Below, piece after piece: positions 1 through 15,861 of a stretch of 17,179 nucleotides of DNA (position 1 is its first letter; every line of letters starts with the position of its first letter). Location of the stretch: IMG/VR virus record IMGVR_UViG_2537562215_000014, one strand, 5' to 3'. The DNA is from a virus. Taxonomy: Duplodnaviria > Heunggongvirae > Uroviricota > Caudoviricetes. The translations under genes and the position numbers were made by a program. The notes below the pieces were generated by a model. It was not told the DNA's origin. It saw only the letters and a program-made list of their open reading frames with translations, and searched no databases.

Positions 1-1224
1 GTGGCACGGACAACACGTCCTCTGACCAACACTGAAATTCTGCGGACTAAAGCTTTAGAGAAGGATCTAACACTGCATGATGGCGAGGGGCTTTTCCTGA
101 TAGTGAAAACAAACGGGAAAAAACTCTGGCGTTTCCGTTATCAACGTCCAACAACAAAACAGCGAACAATGATGGGGCTTGGTGCCTTCCCTGCCTTATC
201 GCTTGGTGATGCCCGAAGGTTAAGGGCTGAATACCTTTCCTTATTAGCCAATGGAATTGACCCGCAAATACAAGCTGAAGTTGCAGAGGAGCAGCAGAAA
301 ATCGTGCTTAACAGTATTTTTTCAGCGGTCGCCTCTAACTGGTTCTTGCTCAAAAGCAAAAGTGTTACTCCTGATTACGCAAAGGATATTTGGCGCTCAT
401 TGGAAAAAGACGTACTCCCTGCTATTGGCGAGATCCCCGTTCAGCAAATCAAAGCCCGAACACTAGTTGAAGCACTTGAACCAATCAAAGCTCGCGGAGC
501 ACTGGAAACAGTTCGTCGCCTAGTACAACGTATTAACGAAATAATGATTTATGCGATTAACACTGGTTTGATTGATACTAATCCAGCATCAGGCATTGGT
601 ATGGCTTTTGAAAAACCCAAAAAGCAAAACATGCCAACACTGCGGCCTGAAGAGTTACCTAAGCTGATGCGTTCTTTAGCTATGTCAAATCTTTCTATTC
701 CAACTCGCTGTCTAATTGAATGGCAACTCCTGACACTTGTACGCCCATCTGAAGCTGCCGGTGCTCGATGGGTAGAGATCGATCTTGAAACAAAACTATG
801 GACAATTCCCGCAGAACGGATGAAAGCCAAGCGTGAGCACATTGTTCCTTTATCACCACAAGCGTTAAATATACTCGATGTTATGAAGCCAATTAGTGGC
901 CACCGAGAATTCATTTTTCCCAGCAGATGTGACCCGAAGAAGTCAATGAACAGTCAAACGGCGAATGCTGCTTTGAAACGGATAGGTTATGGAGGTAAAC
1001 TGGTTGCCCATGGAATGCGCTCAATAGCCAGCACGGCAATGAATGAATTTGGATTCAACCCAGATGTAATTGAAGCTGCACTTGCTCATATTGATAAAAA
1101 TGAAGTTCGACGCGCGTACAACCGCTCAGTTTATCTTACTCAGCGTAAAGAATTGATGGAATGGTGGGGGGAACAATGTGTTTCGCAATTCTCATCTATT
1201 AGAAATAAGTGGCCCGTCTCCTAA
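1..1224 (+). CDS. int: P4-family tyrosine integrase (CP4-57/IntA-like); begins with GTG at window base 1, so the true start may lie upstream
   Basis: 407-aa ORF. N-terminal arm-binding pattern LHDGEGLFLIVKTNGKKLWRFRY; C-terminal catalytic region RPSEAAGARW ... HGMRSIASTAM ... RRAYNRSVYL (Arg, His-x-x-Arg, Tyr). N-terminus MARTTRPLTNTEI closely resembles my recollection of E. coli IntA. Sits at the element end, reading inward. Confidence 0.92.
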   Translation: MARTTRPLTNTEILRTKALEKDLTLHDGEGLFLIVKTNGKKLWRFRYQRPTTKQRTMMGLGAFPALSLGDARRLRAEYLSLLANGIDPQIQAEVAEEQQKIVLNSIFSAVASNWFLLKSKSVTPDYAKDIWRSLEKDVLPAIGEIPVQQIKARTLVEALEPIKARGALETVRRLVQRINEIMIYAINTGLIDTNPASGIGMAFEKPKKQNMPTLRPEELPKLMRSLAMSNLSIPTRCLIEWQLLTLVRPSEAAGARWVEIDLETKLWTIPAERMKAKREHIVPLSPQALNILDVMKPISGHREFIFPSRCDPKKSMNSQTANAALKRIGYGGKLVAHGMRSIASTAMNEFGFNPDVIEAALAHIDKNEVRRAYNRSVYLTQRKELMEWWGEQCVSQFSSIRNKWPVS

Positions 1225-1267
1225 TTTGGTAGTTTTGTTCATTTGAGATACATAGCAAGGATTTGAA

Positions 1268-2371
1268 ATGTACATTCAAGATATTCCTAAAGATTCAAAA
1301 TTTTGGGTTGTTCGATCTGGTGATGGCGGTATGTTTTATGACCACTTTGTGCACAACTCCATAGCAGCTATTGGGCACATTGACGCTATGGAATTTAGCG
1401 ATCAGACCCTCAGTAATAAAGATGAAGTGATTAAACTCGTTTATAATTACAAACAAACTTTGCTTGAAAAAAAGGAAACACTTGCATCTGCATCTAATAA
1501 AGCAGGCCAAGTTCTACGTTTCATTAATGAAATGTCAGTCGGTGATATAATTATAACTCTAGATGCAAGGAGAATAGTGGTCGGCAGGATCATATCTGGT
1601 CCTTATAAAGATATGGAAAATGTAACATTACTCAATGTTGATGGAACAACAGATGAAAAATTGCTTAAATTTACCCTTAGACGTAAAGTTGAATGGGGAA
1701 AAACGCAGTTTCGTGACAAACTTCCATTAGCCATAAATAATAGTTTCAGGGCTAATCAAACTGTTTTCTCAGCAAACGAGCACTGGAAAGAGCTTAATCA
1801 CTGGTTATCTGTTGCATTTATATCAGATAATGAAGCTTATATTTCCTCACGGATTGAGCAAACAGAAGGGATTAACAATCTTGACATTGCTCAATACTCC
1901 ATAATAATAAATAAAATTGAAGCTATTGCTCAAACAATCGCTAACAATGACAACTATCATTTCGATGATGATAAATTATTATCTCTCTTTGAAGATACAT
2001 ATAAAGAACTAAGAAAAAGTAGAACATTTACGGTAACGACACAACAGGTATTTCTTTCACCAGGAGATCTTTGGGCAAAAATATCTGGAAGCCGTAAAAA
2101 AAGCCTGTTAGTTATCTGCACATTTCTTATAATGTTCAATATTGAGCCATCTTTCGCAGATGAAAATGACAAAATATTTTTCGACAACAACTATGAAGCA
2201 ATATCTTTATTAATTAATAAAGTAAAACATGATGAAAACTTTGAGGAAGTAAAAAATGGATTAGCATTAAAAGTTCCTGCACAAAAACTAAACACAAAAA
2301 ACACCTCTACAAACCCCAATAAAAAACGCTATGATGATGATGTAGAACCAGACGACTTTGAAGGCATTTAA
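1268..2371 (+). CDS. hypothetical protein, cargo gene A (367 aa, soluble, acidic C-terminal tail); no family assignable by eye
   Basis: ATG at 1268 preceded by AAGGA (1256..1260, 7-nt spacing). Long uninterrupted ORF in visibly AT-rich DNA, where chance ORFs are rare. Starts 43 nt after the int stop. No Walker A, HNH or GS..DxD motif seen. Confidence 0.85.
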   Translation: MYIQDIPKDSKFWVVRSGDGGMFYDHFVHNSIAAIGHIDAMEFSDQTLSNKDEVIKLVYNYKQTLLEKKETLASASNKAGQVLRFINEMSVGDIIITLDARRIVVGRIISGPYKDMENVTLLNVDGTTDEKLLKFTLRRKVEWGKTQFRDKLPLAINNSFRANQTVFSANEHWKELNHWLSVAFISDNEAYISSRIEQTEGINNLDIAQYSIIINKIEAIAQTIANNDNYHFDDDKLLSLFEDTYKELRKSRTFTVTTQQVFLSPGDLWAKISGSRKKSLLVICTFLIMFNIEPSFADENDKIFFDNNYEAISLLINKVKHDENFEEVKNGLALKVPAQKLNTKNTSTNPNKKRYDDDVEPDDFEGI

Positions 2372-2375
2372 GAGG

Positions 2376-3029
2376 ATGATGAAGTTCATAAAAAAATGGT
2401 GGGATAACCATGATAAATCTAATAATTTTTTATCAGGTATCCATTACATCGTCATTTCGCTAGCTATCATAATTGGTGGCGCGTGGTCGTTGTATACCTT
2501 TGACGCATTACAAATGGCCAAAAATGCGGAAATCCAACTAAAAAAGGCTAACGAAGATTTAAAACAAATAAAAGAGCAAATTAAGGGCACTGACTCTAGC
2601 AGTATTGCTATTAATGTTATCCCGTTAAAAACACAGCTAGGAATGATTATTAATGTAACCATAAAAAATAACGGCAAACGACCATTATCCTTTGACACAT
2701 CCAAAGGAGCTTTAACTGTGTACAAAGTAAGCGCAAATGGCGATAAAGTTGAACAATCTCAATCTTTTACACCAAATCTCTATACATCTTTGAGAGATAA
2801 AAAACACTATCCAGAATCAAAAAGTAAATCATTATCAAAGACACATGTTTTAATAGGAGCAGAAAAAACCCTTAGCTATATTGTTGGATTAAATAAGCCA
2901 GGCGTTTATTATATTACATTTAGGTCAACACCAGATGATAATTTTGACACAGAAGAATTGAAAAACAAAAAACCTGTAGAATGGTTCGCTTCTTCATATG
3001 TTGAAATTACCCCACAAAAATATAAATAA
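2376..3029 (+). CDS. hypothetical bitopic membrane protein, cargo gene B (~217 aa; track ORF starts at TTG 2358, ATG 2376 or 2379 more likely)
   Basis: ATG 4 nt after the gene A stop (TAA 2369..2371), with AAGAGG at 2370..2375. Basic N-terminus MMKFIKKWWDNHDK, one hydrophobic helix LSGIHYIVISLAIIIGGAWSLYTF (about nt 2430..2498), then a charged heptad-like segment and a beta-rich C-terminal domain. AT-rich like gene A. Confidence 0.8.
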   Translation: MMKFIKKWWDNHDKSNNFLSGIHYIVISLAIIIGGAWSLYTFDALQMAKNAEIQLKKANEDLKQIKEQIKGTDSSSIAINVIPLKTQLGMIINVTIKNNGKRPLSFDTSKGALTVYKVSANGDKVEQSQSFTPNLYTSLRDKKHYPESKSKSLSKTHVLIGAEKTLSYIVGLNKPGVYYITFRSTPDDNFDTEELKNKKPVEWFASSYVEITPQKYK

Positions 3030-3335
3030 AAAAAATAAGAAGCACACAAATGTTTTTATAGCCTAAAAAACCGCCACAATATTTAACAGCCACATTAAAA
3101 CACATGCATTATGTTAATGCATTAAATGAAATTAATCCTCCATCCACTCCGTAAAAATAACACTATCATAAACACATCAATAGAGTCATCCAAAACACAA
3201 AAATAACTTTAACTCAATAATATTAAACATTCCCCTTTCTAATCACTACTCTAACTTATTGTCGTAGATGAAGCGAGCAAACTCAATTGCGCTCTCAGAC
3301 TTTGAAAAAATTGAACACATCAACATTTGCGCGCA

Positions 3336-3354
3336 GTGCTTTCCCCGCCTCGCC
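3336..3354 (-). other. cos site: P2/P4-type 19-nt cohesive end (GGCGAGGCGGGGAAAGCAC on the minus strand)
   Basis: Plus strand reads GTGCTTTCCCCGCCTCGCC, the exact reverse complement of the P2/P4 cohesive-end 19-mer as I recall it. It lies downstream of psu, as in P4, inside a GC-rich block (3330..3500). Confidence 0.65.
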
Positions 3355-3518
3355 CGCCCGCTTTGCAGGGCGGTTTTAATGCAGTTGCACTGACACGCTC
3401 AGGCCGCGCCGGGAATGGCGTGTTTTGTTGATAATGGGGCGGGAAAACGCATGCAAAGTCATGCACCTTATCGATGCATGGCTTTTTTCAGTAAAAACAA
3501 GCGGGTTTTCGGGGAATT

Positions 3519-4091
3519 TTACACAGACTGACGTGATGCCAGTTGCGCACTTTTACGCGAAAAAATCATGTTCTGCGCAGGGGTGAATTTTTCACGGCAG
3601 TCATCCACCGAAGCCGCGTCAGGCCTGAATCCGATGGTCGTTAAAATGTCGCTATCCTGTGCGGAATAATTAATTTTTTCCCCCTTCGCAAGCCAGGACA
3701 GAAGGGCTTCACGCAAGGCATCTGTGGCACGCTGTATGGCACAGTTTCGGGCAATGGCCGTCAGTTCACTGTAGCCCATCAGCTCCGGTGCCAGTGCGGC
3801 CGCCAGTACTGTGCCGTGCTGCTGCATAAAATCATTCAGCCGGTCGCGGATGCTGATGTGCTGAACGGCTTCATGCGAACGAATATAACGACCGGCGGCC
3901 TGATTCACCTGCCATTTTCTGACTTCGATAATATTGCGTAATTCGTCCAGGCGACTGACGTTTCTGCCTTCTCCTGACAGAAGCCGCAGGTATTCCTGTT
4001 CGGCCGCTGCCAGCTCATTTTTGCGTTGCAGCCATGCTGCTTTGTTATTCTGACAGGTGTCAAAGGCCTGCTGTAAGGCTGTGCTTTCCAT
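3519..4091 (-). CDS. psu: Psu, polarity suppression / capsid decoration protein (Rho antagonist)
   Basis: 190 aa, the same length as P4 Psu. N-terminus MESTALQQAFDTCQNNKAAWLQRK matches my recollection of P4 Psu. Last gene of the sid-delta-psu operon. Confidence 0.88.
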   Translation of the reverse strand: MESTALQQAFDTCQNNKAAWLQRKNELAAAEQEYLRLLSGEGRNVSRLDELRNIIEVRKWQVNQAAGRYIRSHEAVQHISIRDRLNDFMQQHGTVLAAALAPELMGYSELTAIARNCAIQRATDALREALLSWLAKGEKINYSAQDSDILTTIGFRPDAASVDDCREKFTPAQNMIFSRKSAQLASRQSV

Positions 4092-6250: not shown

Positions 6251-6280
6251 TTGCCTTTTTCCGGCATTTGCGGATATAGT
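6251..6280 (+). promoter_or_regulatory. PLE-like sigma70 promoter (-35 TTGCCT, 18-bp spacer, -10 TATAGT)
   Basis: Hexamers at 6251..6256 and 6275..6280, immediately downstream of vis, where P4 PLE is expected. Confidence 0.5.
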
Positions 6281-6343
6281 CTTTCCGTTGCCGCAAAATC
6301 GGCAGCCGGGCGTGAGAACCCGTGTAACTCGAAGGCGACATAT

Positions 6344-6365
6344 GACGCGCCATGCGTCTTTTTTT
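6344..6365 (+). terminator. Short hairpin followed by U7 in the PLE leader (candidate attenuator / immunity terminator)
   Basis: GACGCG-CCA-TGCGTC (6-bp stem including one G-U) followed by TTTTTTT at 6359..6365, ~60 nt downstream of the predicted PLE start. Confidence 0.35.
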
Positions 6366-6604
6366 GTGTCGCAATCAACGCCACAGAGCGCCAGATTATG
6401 GTGTGGCGTGTGGTTTGCCGTGCAGGTATGATCCTGTTCGCAATCGCATGTTATGCCACTGAGTCAATGGTAGCTCAGGCGGGGCAGCCTCCGGGCTGGC
6501 CGGTATTCTTCGAGGCCGGTATTCTCACCCCCGTCTGGGCTATCGCCATCGAGCGTGAGAACTCCGGCGATAGCAGTTATTTGCTACTCGAAGGAGGCTG
6601 CCTT

Positions 6605-6802
6605 ATGGCTACAACCCTTACCCCCTCACACCCTGAATTTGTCTTTGTGTTTGCGGCTGTCCGTCGCGCAGACCGTCATCCCCGTATCTGTATGCTTCGC
6701 ACCGTCGCCGGTGATGAACGCAGTGCCCGCCGTTCCTTTGTCCGTGACTATGTGCTCTCCCTTGCTGCCCGTCTGCCGGTGGTGGAGGTGTCCCGTGCGT
6801 AA
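6605..6802 (+). CDS. small hypothetical protein of the left operon (65 aa)
   Basis: ATG at 6605 with AAGGAGG (6591..6597, 7-nt spacing). Its stop overlaps the next gene's start, suggesting translational coupling. Confidence 0.55.
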
Positions 6803-7082
6803 TAAAAAAGCCCCTCAGACCGTCTCAGCGCGTCATGACGCCTGTGAACACCTCAGCATTGAGGCTTACCATAAGCTCAACCGCGCCAGCGCCGTATCCC
6901 AGTTTGTTGGGGGTGATTTGATTCACCGTGAACTCTCCGGCCTGCATCAGCTCTACATTCCGCATATTTTCAGCTACCTGAATGAAGATATTGATTTTGT
7001 GCTGAATGAGCTGAAAGCCAAAGGCCTGTGCCGCGATTTTCTCGCCCAGCAGAAAGACCGGGGAGACAGGACGCATGTTTGA
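6795..7082 (+). CDS. small protein (~95 aa) at the position of P4 epsilon; function inferred from position only
   Basis: GTG at 6795 with GGAGGTG 4 nt upstream. The stop overlaps the start of the 151-aa ORF (7075). The track ORF is longer (starts 6555), but the SD supports the 6795 start. Confidence 0.5.
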
Positions 7083-7530
7083 TTTTCCCCAGCCCGGTGA
7101 GATTTACCGTTCTGCCGGTTTTCCCGATGTGGCCGTGGTCGGCATTCTGGAAGACGGTATTCCGTGGGAAATGCCGTACCGCTGCCCGGACATTGTCTGG
7201 AACCCGTACCGCCGTAAATTCAGTATCCTTGTGCGTATCCTCGCCGACGGGCGCACCACAGACATCCCGCTGGGGCGTTTTCTGCGGGAATTTACCTGTG
7301 ACCGTCCTGACCTGTTTAAACGCAGCCCCGTAAACCGGCATGCGGTACTGAAAGAAATGGCCGGAGACCCGGAATTACAGAAATGGCGGGAGAAATATCT
7401 GGATATTTACCCGCAGGACCCTGTTCCGGTCAGCCGGGCGGCACCGGTGGCGCGGGAATGGCGGGAAATTCCCCGCACGGAGCCTGACCCGGAAATCACC
7501 CCGGATAACAGTTACCGCAATTATCTGTAA
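7075..7530 (+). CDS. hypothetical protein (151 aa; same length and position as P4 orf151)
   Basis: ATG at 7075 with GGGAGA upstream. Codon usage matches the backbone; co-oriented in the alpha operon. Confidence 0.75.
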   Translation: MFDFPQPGEIYRSAGFPDVAVVGILEDGIPWEMPYRCPDIVWNPYRRKFSILVRILADGRTTDIPLGRFLREFTCDRPDLFKRSPVNRHAVLKEMAGDPELQKWREKYLDIYPQDPVPVSRAAPVAREWREIPRTEPDPEITPDNSYRNYL

Positions 7531-7665
7531 TTAAAAAACGACACCCGAAAAATTAAATGTGCGTATTCGCGCAGGGATACGCACGTCTTCAGGAGACGCA
7601 GATATGCCTTATCAGTTAATGCAACCGGCACGGAATGCAGTCATCTGTCACAGGGAGGAAAGCAA

Positions 7666-7986
7666 ATGAAAACACCCTTACCGCCCGTCTTACGCGCAGC
7701 CCTTTACCGTCGTGCTGTCGCCTGTGCCTGGCTGACCGTGTGCGAACGTCAGCACCGCTACCCGCATCTCACCCTTGAATCACTGGAGGCGGCCATCGCC
7801 GCTGAGCTGGAGGGCTTTTATCTGCGCCAGCACGGTGAGGAAAAAGGGCGTCAGATAGCCTGTGCCCTGCTGGAAGATTTAATGGAATCCGGCCCCCTGA
7901 AGGCCGCGCCGTCGCTGTCCTTTCTCGGGCTGGTTGTGATGGATGAACTCTGTGCCCGTCACATAAAAGCGCCGGTACTGCACTGA
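7666..7986 (+). CDS. hypothetical protein (106 aa; same length and position as P4 orf106)
   Basis: ATG at 7666 with GGGAGG 7 nt upstream. Lies immediately upstream of alpha. Confidence 0.75.
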
Positions 7987-8000
7987 AGGAGAACAACACC

Positions 8001-10334
8001 ATGAAAATGAACGTAACCGCCACCGTCAGCCATGCGCTCGGCCACTGGCCGCGTATTCTCCCGGCGCTGGGGATTCAGGTGCTGAAAAACCGTCATCAGC
8101 CCTGTCCGGTCTGTGGCGGGAGGGACCGCTTCCGTTTTGATGACAGGGAGGGGCGCGGCACCTGGTACTGCAATCAGTGTGGTGCCGGTGACGGCCTGAA
8201 ACTGGTTGAAAAGGTGTTTGGTGTTTCCCCGTCCGACGCGGCCGCAAAGGTGGCTGCCGTGACCGGCAGTCTGCCCCCGGCTGACCTGGCAGTGACGGCC
8301 GCCGCCGTTGCTGAAACAGACGCTGCCCGGAAGAACGCCGCCGCACTGGCACAAACCCTGATGGCAAAAACCCGTCCCGGAACCGGTAACGCCTACCTGA
8401 CCCGCAAGGGCTTTCCCGGCCGGGAATGCCGGATGCTGACCGGCACACACAGAGCCGGTGGCGTGAGCTGGCGCGCCGGTGACCTTGTGGTGCCACTGTA
8501 TGACGACAGCGGCGAACTGGTTAACCTTCAGTTAATCAGTGCTGACGGCCGTAAGCGCACCCTGAAAGGCGGACAGGTCAGGGGCACCTGTCACATCCTT
8601 GAAGGACAGAATCAGACCGGAAAACGTCTGTGGATAGCGGAGGGATACGCGACCGCACTTACCGTACATCACCTGACCGGTGAAACGGTGATGGTGGCGC
8701 TTTCTTCCGTGAACCTCCTTTCTCTGGCCAGCCTTGCCCGGCAGAAGCATCCGGCCTGTCAGATTGTCCTTGCCGCTGACCGTGACCTCAGCGGTGACGG
8801 CCAGAAAAAAGCCGCCGCAGCCGCAGATGCGTGTGAAGGTGTTGTTGCACTGCCGCCGGTCTTCGGTGACTGGAATGATGCCTTCACGCAGTACGGCGGG
8901 GAAGCCACCCGTAAGGCCATTTATGATGCTATCCGGCCACCGGCTGAAAGCCCGTTCGACACCATGAGCGAAGCAGAGTTTTCCGCCATGAGTACCAGCG
9001 AAAAGGCCATGCGTATCTATGAGCATTACGGCGAGGCGCTCGCGGTTGATGCCAACGGCCAGCTTCTGTCCCGTTATGAAAATGGTGTCTGGAAGGTGCT
9101 GCCGCCACAGGACTTTGCCCGGGATGTGGCCGGGCTGTTTCAGCGTCTGCGCGCGCCGTTCTCCTCCGGGAAGGTGGCCTCCGTGGTGGACACCCTGAAG
9201 CTGATTATTCCGCAGCAGGAAGCCCCCTCCCGCCGCCTGATTGGCTTTCGTAACGGCGTGCTCGACACGCAGAACGGCACGTTCCACCCGCACAGTCCGT
9301 CACACTGGATGCGTACCCTGTGCGATGTGGATTTCCCCCCGCCGGTGGAAGGGGAAACGCTGGAAACCCACGCCCCCGCGTTCTGGCGCTGGCTTGACCG
9401 TGCCGCCGGTGGCCGTGCGGAAAAACGCGACGTGATTCTGGCCGCACTGTTTATGGTGCTGGCAAACCGCTACGACTGGCAGCTCTTTCTGGAGGTGACC
9501 GGTCCCGGCGGCAGCGGCAAAAGTATCATGGCCGAAATAGCCACCCTGCTGGCCGGGGAGGATAACGCCACGTCGGCCACCATTGAGACGCTGGAATCCC
9601 CGCGTGAACGTGCCGCGTTAACTGGCTTCTCACTGATACGCCTGCCGGACCAGGAAAAATGGAGCGGCGACGGTGCCGGACTCAAGGCCATCACCGGCGG
9701 CGATGCGGTGTCCGTGGATCCGAAATACCGGGATGCGTACTCCACGCATATCCCGGCGGTGATTCTGGCCGTGAACAATAACCCGATGCGCTTCACCGAC
9801 CGCAGCGGCGGCGTGTCACGCCGGCGGGTGATTATTCACTTCCCGGAACAGATAGCCCCGCAGGAGCGCGACCCGCAGCTTAAGGACAAAATCACCCGCG
9901 AGCTGGCGGTCATCGTGCGTCACCTGATGCAGAAGTTCAGCGACCCGATGCTCGCCCGGTCACTGCTTCAGTCCCAGCAGAACTCAGACGAGGCGCTGAA
10001 CATCAAACGGGATGCCGACCCGACGTTTGATTTTATCGGCTATCTGGAAACCCTGCCGCAGACCAGCGGCATGTATATGGGGAACGCCAGTATCATCCCG
10101 CGTAATTACCGTAAATACCTCTATCACGCCTATCTGGCCTACATGGAGGCAAACGGCTACCGGAATGTACTCAGTCTGAAAATGTTCGGGCTGGGGCTGC
10201 CGGTGATGCTGAAGGAATACGGGCTGAATTACGAGAAGCGCCATACCAAACAGGGGATACAGACCAACCTGACGCTGAAAGAGGAAAGCTACGGCGACTG
10301 GCTGCCAAAATGTGACGACCCTGCAACAGCCTGA
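8001..10334 (+). CDS. alpha: Alpha: primase-helicase replication protein with origin binding (P4 alpha family)
   Basis: 777 aa, the same length as P4 alpha. N-terminal zinc motif CPVCGG...YCNQCG, TOPRIM-like EGYATAL and AADRD, Walker A GPGGSGKS (nt 9501..9524). AAGGAG RBS. Followed by TGTTCACC iterons. Confidence 0.92.
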   Translation: MKMNVTATVSHALGHWPRILPALGIQVLKNRHQPCPVCGGRDRFRFDDREGRGTWYCNQCGAGDGLKLVEKVFGVSPSDAAAKVAAVTGSLPPADLAVTAAAVAETDAARKNAAALAQTLMAKTRPGTGNAYLTRKGFPGRECRMLTGTHRAGGVSWRAGDLVVPLYDDSGELVNLQLISADGRKRTLKGGQVRGTCHILEGQNQTGKRLWIAEGYATALTVHHLTGETVMVALSSVNLLSLASLARQKHPACQIVLAADRDLSGDGQKKAAAAADACEGVVALPPVFGDWNDAFTQYGGEATRKAIYDAIRPPAESPFDTMSEAEFSAMSTSEKAMRIYEHYGEALAVDANGQLLSRYENGVWKVLPPQDFARDVAGLFQRLRAPFSSGKVASVVDTLKLIIPQQEAPSRRLIGFRNGVLDTQNGTFHPHSPSHWMRTLCDVDFPPPVEGETLETHAPAFWRWLDRAAGGRAEKRDVILAALFMVLANRYDWQLFLEVTGPGGSGKSIMAEIATLLAGEDNATSATIETLESPRERAALTGFSLIRLPDQEKWSGDGAGLKAITGGDAVSVDPKYRDAYSTHIPAVILAVNNNPMRFTDRSGGVSRRRVIIHFPEQIAPQERDPQLKDKITRELAVIVRHLMQKFSDPMLARSLLQSQQNSDEALNIKRDADPTFDFIGYLETLPQTSGMYMGNASIIPRNYRKYLYHAYLAYMEANGYRNVLSLKMFGLGLPVMLKEYGLNYEKRHTKQGIQTNLTLKEESYGDWLPKCDDPATA

Positions 10335-10341
10335 CCCACCT

Positions 10342-10365
10342 GACCGGCATCTGCCGGTCTTTTTT
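10342..10365 (+). terminator. rho-independent terminator of the alpha operon
   Basis: GACCGGC-ATCT-GCCGGTC stem-loop followed by TTTTTTT, 8 nt after the alpha stop. Confidence 0.7.
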
Positions 10366-10380
10366 TATCCCGACATCCCC

Positions 10381-10685
10381 CGAAGGTGAACAATCCACTG
10401 TTCACCCTTCACCGTATATTCACCCGTTATCACACTGAAATTAAAAGAGAAAAACGAAAGGTGAACAGTGTGAACAATCAAATCAAAAAAAACTTTTTTC
10501 TTCCTGAGTGATTTCAGTACGGGGGATTAATCACCGGTATGAGTCACACCGGCAGAATGCCGGAGGTGAAGAATCGAATGTTCACCCTTCACCCATTATT
10601 CACCACCTATCACTCTGAAATAAAAGGAGAAAAAAGAAAGGTGAACAGTGTGAACAGTTCTTTCGAAAAAAAATTTTTTTCCTGT
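10381..10685. repeat. crr-like cis replication region: two ~125-bp direct repeats (10381..10505 and 10561..10685), each with TGTTCACC/GGTGAACA iterons
   Basis: The two copies are near-identical at 180-bp periodicity. Each contains GGTGAA, TGTTCACC, TTCACC, and GGTGAACAGTGTGAACA followed by an A-run/T-run. Matches the P4 crr description (two ~120-bp repeats next to alpha). Confidence 0.7.
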
Positions 10686-10818
10686 ACGATATAGCATCAA
10701 TCCAAGTAAAAATGCGCTTTCATTTCACATTAACTTACAGCCATTGGTATACGATTAGGTATACGCACAAAAACTGAATTAAACAAAATCATTAAAAATC
10801 AAAGCAATACAATATTTA

Positions 10819-10840
10819 TTCAAACTCCGCCAGCCCACCA
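10819..10840 (+). other. candidate attR core (resembles the 3' end of ssrA/tmRNA, ending CCACCA)
   Basis: TTCAAACTCCGCCAGCCCACCA versus my recollection of the ssrA 3' end TTCAACTCCCGCCAGCTCCACCA (a similar but imperfect match by eye). No T-arm partner upstream, so it is a fragment, not a gene. Upstream are two direct GGTATACG copies (10746, 10758) that could be integrase arm sites. Confidence 0.35.
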
Positions 10841-10967
10841 ATCATGATTGGACGGTATAAGGACAACACCAATAAAAACAGGAAGTTAGCAGTCTCAGCA
10901 GGACACCGACCAGACGGTGAAGAGACATAAAAGGATACGCAAAGGAGCCGCGGCTCCTGGTGACATG

Positions 10968-10991
10968 AAAGCCCACAGATGTGGGCTTTTT
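10968..10991. terminator. hairpin terminator between the element and the autotransporter 3' end (possibly bidirectional)
   Basis: AAAGCCCAC-AGAT-GTGGGCTTT followed by TT on the plus strand; on the minus strand it lies 10 nt after the autotransporter stop (11001). Confidence 0.55.
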
Positions 10992-11000
10992 CGTTGATGG

Positions 11001-11372
11001 TCAGAACGACCAGTTCACACCAGCTACCCCGTTCCACGGGGATTCCACACCGGCACCATGGCTATACCCCACCCCAAGATGCCCGCTTAACGTACTGCTG
11101 AATGAGGCTTTAATACCTGCCTGGTATATTCCACGTCTGCCCGACAAATCATTGACGAAATTACCGTCACTATTCACTTTCACCCGGTTATCATCGACAA
11201 ATTCTTTGCGCACAGCCGCCTTCAGCCACGGCTCAACTTCCATACCGTTCCCCAGACGCATGTTGTAACTCAGCGTTGCACCCAGTTCACGATATAAACT
11301 GCGGGTATCGACTGATTTCGATTCCATGCCATTGGATAAATGATATTCAGGGTTATCAGCGATGAACCCCCG
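11001..11372 (-). pseudogene. autotransporter beta-barrel C-terminal segment, out of frame with the passenger segment (ends ...GVNWSF)
   Basis: C-terminal aromatic-x-Phe motif NWSF typical of type Va autotransporters. This frame is open back to the stop at 11373..11375; it is shifted relative to the 626-aa ORF at a C5 run (11367..11371). Confidence 0.75.
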
Positions 11373-13294
11373 TTAACGATGCATACGGCGTCAGGTTCCA
11401 GTTACCATCGGTAAATCGCATCCCGGTTTCAATGTGACCGCCCAGCCCGTTGCTGCGATAACTGCCGTTGGCGGCTCCACCGCTGCCAACCGTGGAGTCG
11501 CGAGCTTCGGTACCTGCTAATACCAATAAATTACCGCCATTTTCCAGCAACATATTGGTCGCTAAATTGCCGGAAATGGAAAAAGTGCCGTACTGGTGAG
11601 TACCGCTGATTTCAATACCGTTAGCCGTGCTCGTCTGGAGAGCGGCACCGCTGTTCTGGACGATATCTGTCGCTTTGCCATTATCGTTAACTGTCAGCGT
11701 ACCGCCTTCATTGATCTTTGTTTTTATTGCCTCTCCGTTAGCTGAAACTGTTTGTATTCCGCCGTCGTTAATCGTTGTCTCATTCGCCACCCCCTCGACG
11801 ATTTGTTCGCCGCCGGTGAGCGTCGTGCCTGTCGCAGTGGCTTTTGTTTTGACGATCTCCCGTCCGCCCGTATTGACCTGTGTTTTGTCAGAAGAGGTGT
11901 CTGACTCCATGGTTAACACGCCGCCATTTGCCAGCAGGATATTGTTCGCCGCACCCTGCTCGATGCTGAACGCGACGCCATCCGCGCGTGTTCCTGTGAC
12001 CCGCGTCGCCCTGGTGGTTGCAACCAAAGCGTCCTGGCTACTCTGCTGTATCCCCGTTGCGCTGCCTTTCTCCCGCACATCGAGTGTGCCGCCGTCATTA
12101 AGCACCGAGTTTTCAGCCAGACCGCCCTCATTAACTACCTGTGAACACCCATTAATAATGGAACCTTCCGCTGTCCCGTTTGCCATAATTTGTTGTAGGC
12201 CAGAGACGATATCGGTATTGATTGCCTTACCATAATTCTGAACGGTTTGCGTGCCACCATTGATGTGTGTTTTCTCTGTTGACCCACCATCAACAATTTG
12301 TTCACCACTTTCGATATTTGCCTCAGTGGCTAATCCATATACCGTTTGCTTGCCACCTTTGATATTTGCTTTATCAGAAGTGGCACTGGCATATATTGTT
12401 TGGGTGCCAGCACTATTGAGTACAGTGCCAACATCTTTTCCATAAACATCCATTTTGCCGTTGGCATTAATAATCGTATCAACTGCCCGGGAACCAGTGA
12501 CGACTGTTAATGAGCCAGCGTTTTCCAGCACTACATTTTTAGCTTCTGAATTCCTGATGTAGAAAGCATCACCATAACTGTTGGTTCCTTCGATAAGGGT
12601 TCCGGAAGTTGTGGAAGCAATTAATGCGCCGCCGGATTGTTGCTCAACATGCTTAGCCTCACCACCGTCCTGAACCTCCAGAACGCCACCATTATTAAGT
12701 CTGGTGGTATCTGTTTTAGCCTCCTTCTGGACAATCAGCTTACCGCCAGCATCAACGGTAGTATTTTTCGCCGAGGTTTTAGCCACTACCGTCAGTTCGC
12801 CGGTATTTTCCAGCACAACATAATTAGCCTCCCCTCCGGTAATAGTGAAGTGAGAGAGCTTGTTGTATCCTTCAATATCAGTCCCTGCGCCCGTGTTGGC
12901 AACTAAAGCACTGCCCGTCTCCTGGTTAACCCCATGTGCAATACCACCGGTATAGACAATCAGCGAGCCTCCGGCGCTAATATTGCTGCCAGTTGCCGTA
13001 CCATCTTTCTCAACAACCTGCCGGCTCCCGGAGGATATAATTGTCGTGTCAGCTTTCCCGCCGCTCTTGATATTTTGCGTTCCGCCGTTGATATTGGTAC
13101 CCGTGGCAATACCATGATTATTAATATTCTGTGTACCACCATTGATTATGGTATTGGTCGCGTTTCCGGTAACATCCATTACCCCGCCGTTATCTATTCG
13201 GGTCGCATCAGCTTTAGCATTCGTTAAAACTGACATTGTTCCTTTATCTTTAATAATCGTCTTGTTTGCCGAACCATATGCGTTTATGTCTAAA
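11356..13294 (-). pseudogene. AIDA-type autotransporter adhesin, passenger segment distal to the IS insertion
   Basis: 626-aa ORF rich in ~19-aa Gly/Thr/Asn passenger repeats (TTINGG, GGTQ, NVVLENAG). The reading frame continues seamlessly across the IS insertion point. Confidence 0.8.
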
Positions 13295-13302
13295 TGTAGT
13301 GG

Positions 13303-15523
<2,221 letters not shown>

Positions 15524-15861
15524 AAATTTCATCCTCTGAAAAGTGAATACTGAGTAGCGTTTAAGCGACCTTAGCTTTGCTGCAACATCAGCCCACAGGC
15601 ACCAGACCAGGGGATTCATCCTGAAGAGACAGCGCAAGTGTATTGTGTTCACCGCTCATCAAAGACATCATGATGAAATGATGATATTCCGCATAAGAAT
15701 GAGGCATTTTTTAAACGCAGTGCGCTGAAGTGTGGTTGGATAAAAAAGTCAATCCATTCAGGAAATACGGGCGTATTCTTTTCTTTCGACAATGAGGCCG
15801 TTGGCAAAATAAAATGATTTACATAATCGTTTCTGATGAATATCTTCTGCTCACATAAAAA

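What the first reader, a model, noticed from the sequence alone, without database searches (positions are those of the whole stretch)
2376..3029. Cargo protein B: bitopic membrane protein with a coiled segment and beta-rich extracytoplasmic domain
A basic N-terminus, one transmembrane helix (about nt 2430..2498) and a charged heptad-like stretch (DALQMAKNAEIQLKKANEDLKQIKEQIKG) precede a Ser/Thr/Lys-rich domain. The tight link to gene A suggests translational coupling and a fixed stoichiometry. It could be a membrane effector or an envelope-located sensor or exclusion factor.
Basis: inference. Interest (0 to 1): 0.65.

Follow-up and report, generated by a model that had tools for sequence, protein, structure and literature searches.

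The report
Membrane partner of a satellite-borne defence pair
Gene B encodes a small inner-membrane protein (one membrane helix, a short coiled-coil stalk and an immunoglobulin-like domain that probably faces the periplasm) that always follows a partner gene with a DNA-reader-like domain, and the pair sits in the anti-phage hotspot of a P4-like phage satellite, so it is probably an untested two-gene phage-defence module.

Summary
ORF 2376..3029 is a real gene under purifying selection (RefSeq WP_001493296.1, "hypothetical"). It has one TM-grade helix (residues 19-42), a true coiled-coil stalk (43-71) and a nine-strand Ig-like beta-sandwich (72-217).

The stalk evidence is strong. Across 61 relatives its length is 27+7n residues in 52, and a/d positions are 79-86% hydrophobic. 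Charge bias, and relatives with an extra N-terminal helix, favour an N-in/C-out topology.

B belongs to an unannotated superfamily of 431 representatives, with no Pfam, PADLOC or NCBIfam family. In every locus with a gene-A relative, B lies directly downstream; the only exception is one truncated copy.

A carries the reader domain of PDC-S02/Mrr-type restriction enzymes, which has an EVE/YTH-like fold. The nuclease is replaced by a conserved hydrophobic helix.

The AT-rich A-B cargo lies exactly between int and cos-psu of a P4-like satellite. It also occurs in other satellites, a prophage and defence islands.

Best reading (about 0.4): A senses phage nucleic acid and the A-B membrane complex delivers a membrane-directed abortive response. 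Envelope-sensor and exclusion roles remain open. Nothing here was tested experimentally.

The parts
2376..3029 (+). Gene B CDS (217 aa; the alternative start ATG 2379 gives 216 aa), including the stop at 3027-3029
   Evidence: ORF and translation. RefSeq CDS WP_001493296.1 has the same coordinates. 31 close clusters and 431 distant representatives. pN/pS 0.12.
2376..2429 (+). B residues 1-18: basic N-terminal tail (MMKFIKKWWDNHDKSNNF), predicted cytoplasmic
   Evidence: 4 K against 2 D/E. W9, N11 and N16 are conserved in the close family. Positive-inside statistics.
2430..2501 (+). B residues 19-42: the single transmembrane helix, with the conserved GG-x-W-x-x-YTF motif
   Evidence: KD19 maximum 1.99. 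134 of 172 family proteins have exactly one such segment. W37 is nearly invariant across 61 distant members.
2502..2588 (+). B residues 43-71: coiled-coil stalk of about four heptads
   Evidence: Stalk lengths follow 27+7n in 52 of 61 sequences. Hydrophobic occupancy is 0.79 at a and 0.86 at d, against 0.33 or less elsewhere. AlphaFold2 models a continuous helix over residues 2-71.
2589..3026 (+). B residues 72-217: Ig-like beta-sandwich domain (motifs IKNNGK, VLIGAEKxLSY, GxYYIxF, WFAS), predicted periplasmic
2369..2381 (+). A-B junction: A stop TAA (2369-2371), AAGAGG (2370-2375), ATG ATG (2376-2381)
   Evidence: Read directly from the sequence. The Salmonella copy has TAA-GAGGG-TAACG-ATG. 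The gap is 18 nt or less, or the genes overlap, in all loci.
1268..2371 (+). Gene A CDS (367 aa), the obligate upstream partner (Pfam DUF8426 in the precomputed annotations)
   Evidence: An HMM of A finds it directly upstream of B in L001-L010, L015-L017, L020, L022 and L029-L038. pN/pS 0.14.
1268..1837 (+). A residues 1-190: reader domain shared with PDC-S02/Mrr-type restriction enzymes; PUA-like (EVE/YTH) fold
2102..2158 (+). A residues 279-297: conserved, non-amphipathic hydrophobic helix (SLLVICTFLIMFNIEPSFA), borderline TM grade
   Evidence: KD19 is 1.67-2.0 at the same position in 10 of 11 divergent A proteins, and the hydrophobic moment is 0.1. Streptococcus phage and satellite relatives have a Gly-rich hydrophobic helix at the equivalent position, while PDC-S02 has none.
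2330..2368 (+). A residues 355-367: acidic C-terminal tail YDDDVEPDDFEGI
   Evidence: Conserved in the Enterobacterales clade but not in distant A proteins.
3030..3335 (.). AT-rich non-coding spacer between the B stop and cos (31.7% GC)
   Evidence: No ORF of 50 aa or more. GC content. Most of it (about 3030-3293) is found only in the two E. coli genomes that carry A-B.
3336..3354 (-). cos cohesive-end sequence GGCGAGGCGGGGAAAGCAC, the right boundary of the cargo
   Evidence: Exact match, with 0 expected by chance. P4 NC_001609 homology starts at 3355, which corresponds to the P4 genome end at 11624.
1..1224 (+). Satellite integrase, the left boundary of the hotspot
   Evidence: Pfam Phage_integrase, Phage_int_M and Arm-DNA-bind_3. 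It lies next to ssrA in the genome.
3519..4091 (-). psu (polarity suppression protein), a P4 core gene flanking the hotspot
   Evidence: Pfam Psu at 9.8e-89. 97% identical to P4.

Best explanation
**Claim.** B is the bitopic inner-membrane subunit of an obligate two-gene anti-phage module (A-B), carried as cargo in the int-cos/psu hotspot of a P4-like satellite.

**Shown**
- B has one TM helix, a heptad-phased coiled-coil stalk and an Ig-like beta-sandwich.
- B is always encoded immediately after A.
- A carries the N-terminal reader domain of PDC-S02/Mrr-type restriction endonucleases, with a PUA/EVE/YTH-like fold.
- In A the nuclease domain is replaced by a region with a conserved hydrophobic helix.
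- The pair occurs on satellites, a prophage and defence islands.

**Inferred**
- B sits N-in/C-out and oligomerises through its TM helix and coiled coil.
- A's reader domain recognises phage, possibly base-modified, nucleic acid in the cytoplasm.
- A's hydrophobic C-terminal region and B's TM helix form a membrane complex.
- The output is at the membrane, as loss of membrane integrity or potential (abortive infection), in place of the DNA cleavage done by the nuclease-bearing relatives.
- The periplasmic beta-sandwich, held at a fixed distance and rotational phase by the stalk, anchors or gates the complex.
For: **Hotspot location**
- The cargo lies exactly between int (1-1224) and cos (3336-3354) / psu.
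- This is the locus shown experimentally to be a reservoir of defence systems (PMC9122126; PMC13586616).
- The cargo is 32-33% GC against 53% for the satellite core.

**Obligate A-B pairing**
- Every locus with an A-family gene has a B-family ORF immediately downstream on the same strand.
- In the 10 metagenomic loci found with A alone, 8 have an intact B and 2 (the same sequence from two samples) have a truncated one.

**Other mobile contexts**
- A Yersinia satellite-like island, and a Proteus prophage moron next to DUF4145.
- An island with integrase, AlpA and VapE genes.
- A locus with RES and P4 cII-like genes, one next to Fic/YhfG, and one next to a 989-aa reverse transcriptase.

**Domain-swap logic**
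- PDC-S02 is the reader domain plus an Mrr_cat nuclease.
- This layout is conserved as far as Streptococcus phage and satellite proteins.

**B architecture and selection**
- TM helix, heptad-quantised stalk and a conserved GG-x-W TM motif.
- Purifying selection on both genes.

**Precedent**
- P4-hotspot systems that pair an enzyme or sensor with a TM protein have been validated, for example HAD hydrolase + TM and RT-nitrilase + 1TM, and are read as abortive infection (PMC9122126).
Against: - No anti-phage phenotype is known for A-B.
- The one PDC-S02 representative tested elsewhere gave no protection against T4, T5 or T7 (10.1101/2024.09.26.614923).
- B has only one TM helix, and two thirds of it is a conserved, probably periplasmic domain that a simple pore former would not need.
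- If B is N-in/C-out, cytoplasmic A can reach only B's 18-residue tail and TM helix, unless A's hydrophobic helix inserts into the membrane. That helix is only borderline (KD 1.7-2.0), and in the Streptococcus relatives the flank charges do not fit a simple N-in TM.
- Distant B-like proteins occur without A, so B-type proteins are not tied to this mechanism.
Confidence: 0.4

Rival explanations
1. **Envelope sensor or anchor (Kiwa/Zorya-like logic).** B's periplasmic beta-sandwich on its phase-locked stalk detects phage attachment, injection or envelope perturbation. It then recruits or activates A at the inner membrane. A is the actual effector: its reader domain binds incoming phage DNA and blocks its use, without killing the cell.
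For: - The beta-sandwich is the best conserved part of B and is predicted to be periplasmic.
- The stalk keeps heptad register through at least four independent length changes. This is expected if rotational or mechanical coupling between the outside domain and the TM helix matters.
- A has a nucleic-acid-reader fold and no recognisable catalytic domain.
- Membrane-embedded sensing with a DNA-directed cytoplasmic partner is known from Kiwa and Zorya (own knowledge, not tested here).
Against: - In the nuclease-bearing relatives (PDC-S02) the reader domain is the sensing part, so A already has a sensor.
- Streptococcus A-like proteins work, if they work, without any B-like neighbour.
- There is no sequence or profile similarity to KwaA/B or ZorA/B in PADLOC.
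Confidence: 0.22
2. **Superinfection-exclusion factor.** B acts like the bitopic prophage Sie proteins such as lactococcal Sie2009 or HK97 gp15. It blocks DNA injection at the inner membrane through its periplasmic domain, and A modulates or stabilises it.
For: - B is a small N-in/C-out bitopic protein encoded by satellites and a prophage.
- In the Proteus prophage the cassette lies inside the tail-gene region, a typical moron position.
Against: - B never occurs without A in this clade, whereas known Sie proteins are single genes.
- A's cytoplasmic reader domain has no role in such a model.
- No PHROG, Pfam or PADLOC match to any Sie family.
- No tblastn match for B in 50,697 phage records.
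Confidence: 0.1
3. **Not a defence system.** A-B is an accessory membrane module of mobile elements with another role, such as satellite-helper interference, envelope remodelling, or a toxin-antitoxin-like addiction pair. It merely travels in variable regions.
For: - No experimental phenotype exists.
- Neither protein is called by PADLOC as a system.
- All database names are 'hypothetical'.
- 2 of the 8 unknown P4 hotspot loci tested in PMC13586616 gave no protection.
Against: - Most tested cargo of this hotspot is defensive: 6 of 8 unknown loci, and 18 systems were cloned and tested in PMC9122126.
- A shares a domain with restriction endonucleases.
- Neighbours in other loci are defence or TA genes: DUF4145, RES, Fic, and a large reverse transcriptase.
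Confidence: 0.13

Closest known systems
PDC-S02 (PADLOC candidate single-gene system; Mrr-type restriction endonuclease with an N-terminal reader domain, e.g. Salmonella Infantis EHB39536.1)
   Same: A's residues 11-189 are homologous to the N-terminal half of PDC-S02 (2.7e-18). All 11 divergent A proteins match it. Both lie in defence contexts.
   Different: - PDC-S02 ends in an Mrr_cat nuclease (Pfam 1.7e-23) and is a single gene with no hydrophobic segment (maximum KD 0.94).
- A lacks the nuclease, has a hydrophobic helix, and always has B downstream.
- PDC-S02 itself is unvalidated; one representative tested negative.
Modification-dependent (type IV-like) restriction enzymes with EVE/PUA-like readers, e.g. 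VcaM4I (PDB 6yex); the EVE protein PH1033 (1wmm); YTH domains
   Different: No sequence-profile membership in Pfam EVE, YTH or ASCH. No nuclease domain. Binding of modified bases is untested.
P4-hotspot systems that pair a cytoplasmic protein with a TM protein (HAD-like hydrolase + TM; RT-nitrilase + 1TM; Rousset et al. 2022, PMC9122126)
   Same: Same locus (between int and psu, next to cos), and the same two-gene logic with a small TM protein interpreted as an abortive-infection effector.
   Different: The protein families are unrelated: there are no PADLOC hits for B. B carries a large, conserved extracytoplasmic domain.
Kiwa (KwaA/KwaB) and Zorya (ZorAB + ZorC/D): membrane-embedded sensors coupled to DNA-directed partners (own knowledge)
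   Same: The combination of a membrane protein with a cytoplasmic nucleic-acid-binding partner that has no obvious catalytic domain (as in KwaB). Envelope-level sensing is possible.
   Different: No homology. KwaA is polytopic, and ZorAB is a MotAB-like motor. B is a single-pass protein with a coiled-coil stalk and an Ig-like domain.
CBASS Cap15-type effectors (N-terminal TM helices + C-terminal beta-barrel) (own knowledge; cited in PMC9122126 as Duncan-Lowey 2021)
   Same: A small protein with an N-terminal TM segment and a C-terminal all-beta domain, in a defence context.
   Different: Cap15's beta-barrel is cytoplasmic and binds a nucleotide signal. B's beta-sandwich is predicted to be periplasmic, no cyclase is present, and there is no profile match.
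Pfam DUF4352 (Ig-like domain of bacterial lipoproteins such as B. subtilis YcdA, PDB 4r4g)
   Same: Weak local similarity around the IKNNGK strand (E 0.0035, residues 90-115; 4r4g E 0.074). NCBI names one partial copy 'DUF4352 domain-containing'.
   Different: The score of 18.1 bits is below the gathering cut-off of 25.9. Only 4 of 61 family members hit it. DUF4352 proteins are lipoproteins or secreted proteins, not TM-plus-coiled-coil proteins.

Membership tests
Bitopic (single-pass) inner-membrane protein, N-in/C-out | Exactly one hydrophobic segment of TM length | tested here: met
   KD19 maximum 1.99 at residues 18-36, with no second segment. 134 of 172 family proteins have exactly one such segment.
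Bitopic (single-pass) inner-membrane protein, N-in/C-out | Positive-inside charge bias placing the N-terminus in the cytoplasm | tested here: met
   Mean K+R is 2.41 in the N flank and 1.65 in the C flank. N>C in 77 proteins and N<C in 32. The 2-TM variants have a K/R-rich loop before the family TM helix. The bias is modest.
Bitopic (single-pass) inner-membrane protein, N-in/C-out | Experimentally determined or dedicated-predictor topology | not testable with these tools
   No DeepTMHMM or TOPCONS was available, and no PhoA/GFP fusions could be made.
Coiled coil | Heptad a/d hydrophobic periodicity | tested here: met
   Occupancy is 0.79 at a and 0.86 at d, against 0.04-0.33 elsewhere, in 55 sequences.
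Coiled coil | Length variation in multiples of seven residues | tested here: met
   Stalk lengths of 20, 27, 34, 41 or 48 in 52 of 61 sequences.
Cargo of the P4-like satellite int-psu/cos defence hotspot | Located between the satellite integrase and psu, adjacent to cos | tested here: met
   int at 1-1224, cos at 3336-3354 (exact 19-mer), psu at 3519-4091, with P4 homology starting at 3355. The same position is seen in a Salmonella P4-like element.
Cargo of the P4-like satellite int-psu/cos defence hotspot | Confers resistance to phages | not testable with these tools
   No experiment was possible. The pair is not among the systems named in the main text of PMC9122126, PMC13586616 or PMC13092281.
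PDC-S02 (applied to partner A) | N-terminal reader domain | tested here: met
   PDLC04806 at 2.7e-18, A residues 11-177 against profile positions 3-155 of 324. 11 of 11 A proteins match.
PDC-S02 (applied to partner A) | C-terminal Mrr_cat nuclease and a full-length profile match | tested here: not met
   A matches only the first half of the profiles and has no Pfam Mrr_cat hit. A true member matches positions 3-330 of 334 and has Mrr_cat.
EVE / PUA-like modified-base readers (applied to partner A) | PUA-like beta-barrel fold | tested here: inconclusive
EVE / PUA-like modified-base readers (applied to partner A) | Match to the Pfam EVE, YTH or ASCH profiles | tested here: not met
   None of the 11 A proteins hits them at E<=5.
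Pfam DUF4352 (B) | Score at or above the gathering threshold | tested here: not met
   18.1 bits against a 25.9 cut-off, covering residues 90-115 only. 4 of 61 relatives match at E<=0.01.
Known defence TM proteins (Kiwa KwaA, Zorya, CBASS/Pycsar/retron TM effectors and others in PADLOC v2) | Profile match to any PADLOC model | tested here: not met
   0 families for B at E<=1. Among 61 relatives there is one spurious DpdE hit at 0.0076.
Prophage superinfection-exclusion proteins | A single gene sufficient on its own; homology to a known Sie family | tested here: not met
   B is always paired with A. The only PHROG hit is phrog_806, of unknown function, at E 0.051. No match in phage genomes. Sufficiency itself is untested.

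The most novel reading that the evidence does not exclude
A-B is a new class of membrane-embedded immunity. A restriction-enzyme-type reader of modified bases has been uncoupled from its nuclease and wired to a trans-envelope complex. In that complex, B's periplasmic Ig-like domain, on a phase-locked coiled-coil stalk, links events at the envelope (phage injection) to recognition of the incoming DNA on the cytoplasmic face. The B-type module (TM helix, heptad stalk and beta-sandwich; 431 unannotated representatives) would then be a general, reusable envelope sensor or transducer of bacterial mobile elements.
Probability: 0.2. Interest if true: 0.75.

Novelty: new variant of a known kind. Interest (0 to 1): 0.5.

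Why it matters
- **A different output for a restriction-type reader.** If the pair defends against phages, the reader domain of Mrr-type restriction enzymes has been re-used with a membrane output instead of DNA cleavage. That would be modification-dependent (or at least nucleic-acid-dependent) immunity without a nuclease.
- **A third possible envelope-linked defence.** It would join Kiwa and Zorya as a defence physically tied to the cell envelope.
- **An unannotated protein family gets a description.** The B superfamily has hundreds of divergent members and no Pfam, NCBIfam or PADLOC entry. It now has a clear architecture and a testable design rule: the stalk length must change in steps of seven residues.
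- **Improved annotation.** The pair is a concrete, clonable candidate from the P4 hotspot. It is common in Salmonella, Klebsiella and Citrobacter and is currently annotated only as hypothetical proteins.

Tried and rejected
**Searches for a known family for B: all negative**
- Pfam, NCBIfam, PHROGs and PADLOC gave nothing above threshold.
- The PDB sequence search gave only E 0.074.
- tblastn against 50,697 phage records gave no match.

**Searches on A that gave little**
- Foldseek against the PDB was not significant.
- Pfam at E<=5 on 11 A proteins gave no EVE, YTH or ASCH hit.
- A PDB profile search gave nothing.

- The afdb50 fold library was unavailable.
- The GTDB species-representative scan gave one locus only, and IMG/VR gave three.

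**Contexts of distant B-like proteins**
- Most contigs were too short to be informative (L011-L013).
- L014 and L018/L019 lack A and showed no informative partner; the neighbours are DUF2026, DUF4124 and DUF7379.

**Literature**
- PDC-S02 is mentioned only as a candidate, and one representative tested negative.
- DUF8426 appears in no paper, and the protein accessions appear in none.
- The newly named P4 systems (Crouga, Bandua, Aernus, Toga, Reve, Hailong) do not match A-B, but that paper's supplements are not held.
- The main text of the DefensePredictor paper has nothing matching.
- A bioRxiv paper on H-NS silencing that mentions an EVE domain together with a transmembrane protein could not be opened.

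**Ideas rejected**
- That the B helix is a cleavable signal peptide: the hydrophobic region is too long (about 22 residues) and there is no Cys or AxA site.
- That the 264-aa 'A' in Salmonella is a truncation: the full ORF is intact, so it is a gene-calling artefact.
- That A's acidic tail pairs with B's basic tail as a general interface: the tail is not conserved in distant pairs.
- No Rfam family and no meaningful repeat lies inside the finding.
- Promoter and terminator scans were at background level.
Full report
**1. What is at 2376..3029**

The window has a 217-codon ORF on the + strand. It starts at ATG 2376, with a second ATG at 2379 and an upstream in-frame TTG at 2358. RefSeq annotates exactly 2376..3029 in E. 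coli S1-INA-02-B as WP_001493296.1, "hypothetical protein". The upstream gene A (1268..2371) is WP_234007003.1, also hypothetical.

The A stop codon is at 2369-2371. An AAGAGG motif overlaps it at 2370-2375, and the two ATGs follow at once. Most homologues start at the position of the second ATG. In the Salmonella copy the junction reads TAA-GAGGG-TAACG-ATG.

The gene is real. It has 31 close protein clusters in Enterobacterales, at 54-100% identity. An exhaustive profile search found 431 representative proteins at E<=1e-3 and 87 at E<=1e-10. Nearly all are 190-260 aa and aligned end to end. Between the E. coli and Salmonella copies there are 49 synonymous and 23 non-synonymous differences, giving pN/pS 0.12. 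For A the value is 0.14.

**2. Architecture of B**

- **TM helix.** There is a single hydrophobic segment of TM grade. The Kyte-Doolittle 19-residue maximum is 1.99, and the helix spans residues 19-42, i.e. nt 2430-2501. Of 172 family proteins of normal length, 134 have exactly one such segment. About 20 have an extra N-terminal one.
- **Coiled-coil stalk (residues 43-71).** When 55 relatives are counted in register back from the start of the beta domain, hydrophobic occupancy is 0.79 at a and 0.86 at d, against 0.04-0.33 at the other five positions.
- **Stalk length.** The distance from the YTF motif at the end of the TM helix to the beta domain is 27 residues in 30 sequences, 34 in 11, 41 in 8, 48 in 2 and 20 in 1. 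So 52 of 61 sequences differ by exact multiples of seven. That pattern requires several independent indels that all preserved the heptad phase.
- **Beta domain.** The AlphaFold2 model has mean pLDDT 70.6, with the beta domain mostly at 70-90. It gives one long helix (2-71) followed by nine strands.
- **Composition.** The domain is 33% Ser+Thr+Lys and has no cysteine.
- **Conserved motifs.** These are GG-x-W-x-x-YTF in the membrane, and N-x-G (IKNNGK), VLIGAEKxLSY, GxYYIxF and WFAS in the sandwich.

**3. Topology**

No topology predictor was available, so I applied the positive-inside rule across the family.

- In 1-TM members the 15-residue N flank, counting the N-terminus, carries 2.41 K+R on average, against 1.65 in the C flank. 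N>C holds in 77 proteins and N<C in 32.
- In the 2-TM variants the loop just before the family TM helix is short and K/R-rich, for example YKLYNSKKIESVR and YTRWRSASITK. That places it in the cytoplasm, and so places the stalk and sandwich outside.

I therefore favour N-in/C-out, at roughly 70%. This remains an inference.

**4. No known family**

- B has no hit in PADLOC or NCBIfam.
- Its only Pfam hit is sub-threshold: DUF4352 at 18.1 bits against a 25.9 cut-off.
- Its only PHROG hit is at E 0.051, to a family of unknown function.
- Scanning 61 distant relatives one by one changed nothing.
- The PDB sequence search gave only YcdA at E 0.074.
- There is no tblastn match in 50,697 phage records.

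**5. Genomic setting**

The window is a P4-like satellite integrated next to ssrA. Its parts are:

- Integrase at 1-1224.
- psu at 3519-4091 (Pfam 9.8e-89), then delta and a sid-like gene.
- AlpA, Ash, DUF5375 and the alpha primase.
- The C4 immunity RNA with its targets.

The 19-nt cohesive-end sequence GGCGAGGCGGGGAAAGCAC occurs once, at 3336-3354. That this 19-mer is the P2/P4 cos is my own recollection. The supporting test is that homology to P4 NC_001609 begins at window 3355, which corresponds to the very end of the P4 genome at 11624.

So A, B and a 306-bp AT-rich spacer fill exactly the interval between int and cos/psu. GC content is 33.5% for A, 32.4% for B and 31.7% for the spacer, against 44.7% for int and 53.5% for psu-sid.

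This interval was shown experimentally to be a hotspot of anti-phage systems (PMC9122126). In a later study, 6 of 8 randomly chosen cargo loci of unknown function protected against phages (PMC13586616).

Only 2 of 5,426 complete E. coli genomes carry this cargo. Near-identical proteins are common in Salmonella, Klebsiella and Citrobacter, on hundreds to over 1,000 contigs. In Salmonella they sit in the same int-psu position of a P4-like element.

**6. A and B are an obligate pair**

An HMM of A finds an A-family ORF directly upstream of B, on the same strand, in all of these contexts:

- A Yersinia satellite-like island.
- A Proteus prophage, between the tail chaperone and the tape-measure gene and next to DUF4145.
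- An island with integrase, AlpA and VapE genes.
- A Providencia contig.
- A locus with RES and P4 cII-like genes.
- A locus next to Fic/YhfG.
- A locus next to a 989-aa reverse transcriptase.

These pairs go down to 29-33% identity for B.

The reverse test used A alone to fish in metagenomes. It returned 10 loci, with A at 24-100% identity. Eight have an intact B-family ORF immediately downstream. The other two carry the same sequence from two samples, with B truncated after the TM helix.

Gaps between the two genes are 2-18 nt, or the genes overlap. Co-expression is therefore well supported. Translational coupling is plausible but not shown.

More distant B-like proteins (E about 1e-11 to 1e-22) are found without A. 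One is next to an overlapping DUF2026 gene, and others have no informative partner. The B-type membrane module is therefore older and wider than the A-B pair.

**7. What A is**

*The reader domain*
- A residues 11-189 match the N-terminal half of four PADLOC PDC-S02 profiles, the best at 2.7e-18. They also match an internal region of a type II restriction enzyme profile.
- All 11 divergent A proteins match PDC-S02 in the same way.
- A genuine PDC-S02 protein is Salmonella Infantis EHB39536.1, annotated as a restriction endonuclease and located next to hipBA. It matches PDC-S02 end to end at 1.4e-82 and carries a Pfam Mrr_cat nuclease at residues 225-338.
- PDC-S02 is therefore a reader domain plus an Mrr nuclease.

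- The AF2 model of A has mean pLDDT 72.5, with the N-domain at 72-94.
- This is a PUA-like reader fold. It is supported by structure prediction only: there is no Pfam EVE or YTH hit, and Foldseek gave nothing significant.

*What replaces the nuclease*
- In A the nuclease is absent.
- Instead there is a helical and beta middle region, an invariant Q-x(4)-SPG motif, and a uniformly hydrophobic helix at 279-297.
- That helix has KD19 of 1.67-2.0 in 10 of 11 divergent members and a hydrophobic moment of 0.1.
- The close clade also has an acidic tail, YDDDVEPDDFEGI.

*Gram-positive relatives*
- Streptococcus temperate phages and satellites encode 356-357-aa relatives near their integrase genes.
- They keep the same layout, including an SPGD-like motif and a Gly-rich hydrophobic helix at 263-281 (KD 1.69 and 1.75).
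- They have no B-like neighbour. PDC-S02 has no hydrophobic segment, with a maximum KD of 0.94.

**8. Mechanism**

*Shown*
- The domain architecture of both proteins.
- The obligate adjacency of A and B.
- Purifying selection on both genes.
- The hotspot location.
- The replacement of a nuclease by a hydrophobic region in a restriction-type reader protein.

*Inferred, and my best reading at about 0.4*
- A recognises phage, possibly base-modified, nucleic acid with its reader domain.
- The output has moved from DNA cleavage to the membrane.
- It is carried out by a complex of A's hydrophobic C-terminal region with oligomeric B, probably as abortive infection through loss of membrane integrity or potential.
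- This fits the way other P4-hotspot pairs with a TM protein are interpreted.

*What argues against it*
- B has only one TM helix.
- Its largest and best conserved part is probably periplasmic.
- A has no proven membrane insertion.
- The only PDC-S02 representative tested so far did not protect against T4, T5 or T7.

*Rivals*
- **Sensor/anchor, 0.22.** B's outside domain, on a phase-locked stalk, reports injection or envelope damage and positions A at the DNA entry site. This is a Kiwa/Zorya-like logic, drawn from my own knowledge.
- **Sie-like exclusion, 0.1.** This is weakened by the obligate pairing with a cytoplasmic reader protein.
- **A non-defence accessory module, 0.13.**

**9. Novelty and verdict**

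I found no name, paper or curated model for B or for the A-B pair.
- Pfam has only a recent DUF entry (DUF8426) for A. It appears in the precomputed annotations but not in the local Pfam copy.
- The newly named P4 systems have other architectures.
- I could not check that paper's supplements, or a 2026 bioRxiv paper that mentions an EVE domain together with a transmembrane protein. A prior description therefore cannot be fully excluded.

I file A-B as a new variant of a known kind: a two-gene hotspot cargo that pairs a sensor-type protein with a membrane protein. Its functional alternatives remain open, with a tilt toward a membrane-output role.

Interest is 0.5. This is a clean, clonable candidate with an unusual domain swap and a testable stalk rule, but it has no phenotype yet.

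Noticed in passing
window 1268-2371 (gene A): A's N-terminal 190 residues are the reader domain of PDC-S02/Mrr-type restriction enzymes, with an EVE/YTH-like predicted fold. The nuclease is replaced by an SPGD motif, a conserved non-amphipathic hydrophobic helix (residues 279-297, nt 2102-2158) and an acidic tail. Residues 153-181 are highly conserved but modelled at pLDDT below 50, so they may form a ligand-ordered lid.
   Followed up: yes
window 3336-3354 (- strand): There is an exact 19-nt P2/P4 cohesive-end (cos) sequence here, and P4 homology starts at 3355. This defines the right edge of the cargo.
   Followed up: yes
window 3030-3335: This is a 306-bp AT-rich (31.7% GC) stretch after B with no ORF of 50 aa or more. 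Most of it (about 3030-3293) is found only in the two E. coli genomes that carry A-B. An imperfect 18-nt direct repeat of the end of gene A (2354-2371, GACTTTGAAGGCATTTAA) lies at 3298-3315 (78% identity), just before cos. It could be a recombination scar or chance.
   Followed up: no
window 6274-6550: Rfam finds the C4 antisense RNA (6463-6550), its a1/b1 targets (6274-6326) and isrK (6287-6364). This is the P4-type immunity region, inside the Ash-family ORF.
   Followed up: partly
window 11356-15652 and 14362-14484: Outside the satellite there are AIDA-type autotransporter fragments (11356-13236 and 14537-15652, - strand), separated by an IS transposase fragment (rve, 13549-14049). The isrC sRNA lies at 14362-14484 (150 bits).
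   Followed up: no
L022 6692-7792 (Salmonella P4-like element): Hundreds of Salmonella and Klebsiella records annotate A as a 264-aa protein starting at residue 104. The full 367-codon ORF is intact there, so this is a gene-calling artefact and not a truncation.
   Followed up: yes
L023 2471-3544; L025 2468-3538 (Streptococcus phage phiGBSVK-D and satellite Javan339): These 356-357-aa relatives of A are encoded near the integrase genes of Gram-positive temperate phages and satellites. They have the same reader + SPGD + Gly-rich hydrophobic helix layout but no B-like neighbour. In the Streptococcus phage (L023) the neighbours are a repressor and an IrrE-like peptidase; in the satellite (L025) a MazF-like toxin.
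   Followed up: partly
L004-L006 about 6400-13400 (Proteus mirabilis prophage): The A-B cassette sits in a roughly 7-kb block inserted between the tail assembly chaperone and the tape-measure gene. The block also holds a DUF4145 protein, an S24 repressor, ORF6N and pRha/ANT antirepressor-like genes, which is an unusual place for such a block.
   Followed up: no
L036 917-1180 and L037 885-1148 (marine metagenomes): The B homologue is truncated right after its TM helix and is followed by non-coding-looking sequence, while A is intact. This looks like one decayed copy of the pair.
   Followed up: partly
B superfamily (P0042, P0044, P0053, P0059-P0063, P0222 and others): About 20 of 172 relatives carry an additional N-terminal TM helix followed by a K/R-rich loop. 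One of them (P0222, L015) is still paired with A. Distant B-like proteins pair with other genes, for example a DUF2026 gene with a 4-nt overlap in L011.
   Followed up: partly
window 1225-3335: The whole cargo is 32-33% GC inside a 45-53% GC element, typical of H-NS-silenced horizontally acquired DNA. A 2026 bioRxiv paper on H-NS silencing of immunity loci, which mentions an EVE domain together with a transmembrane protein, could not be opened.
   Followed up: no
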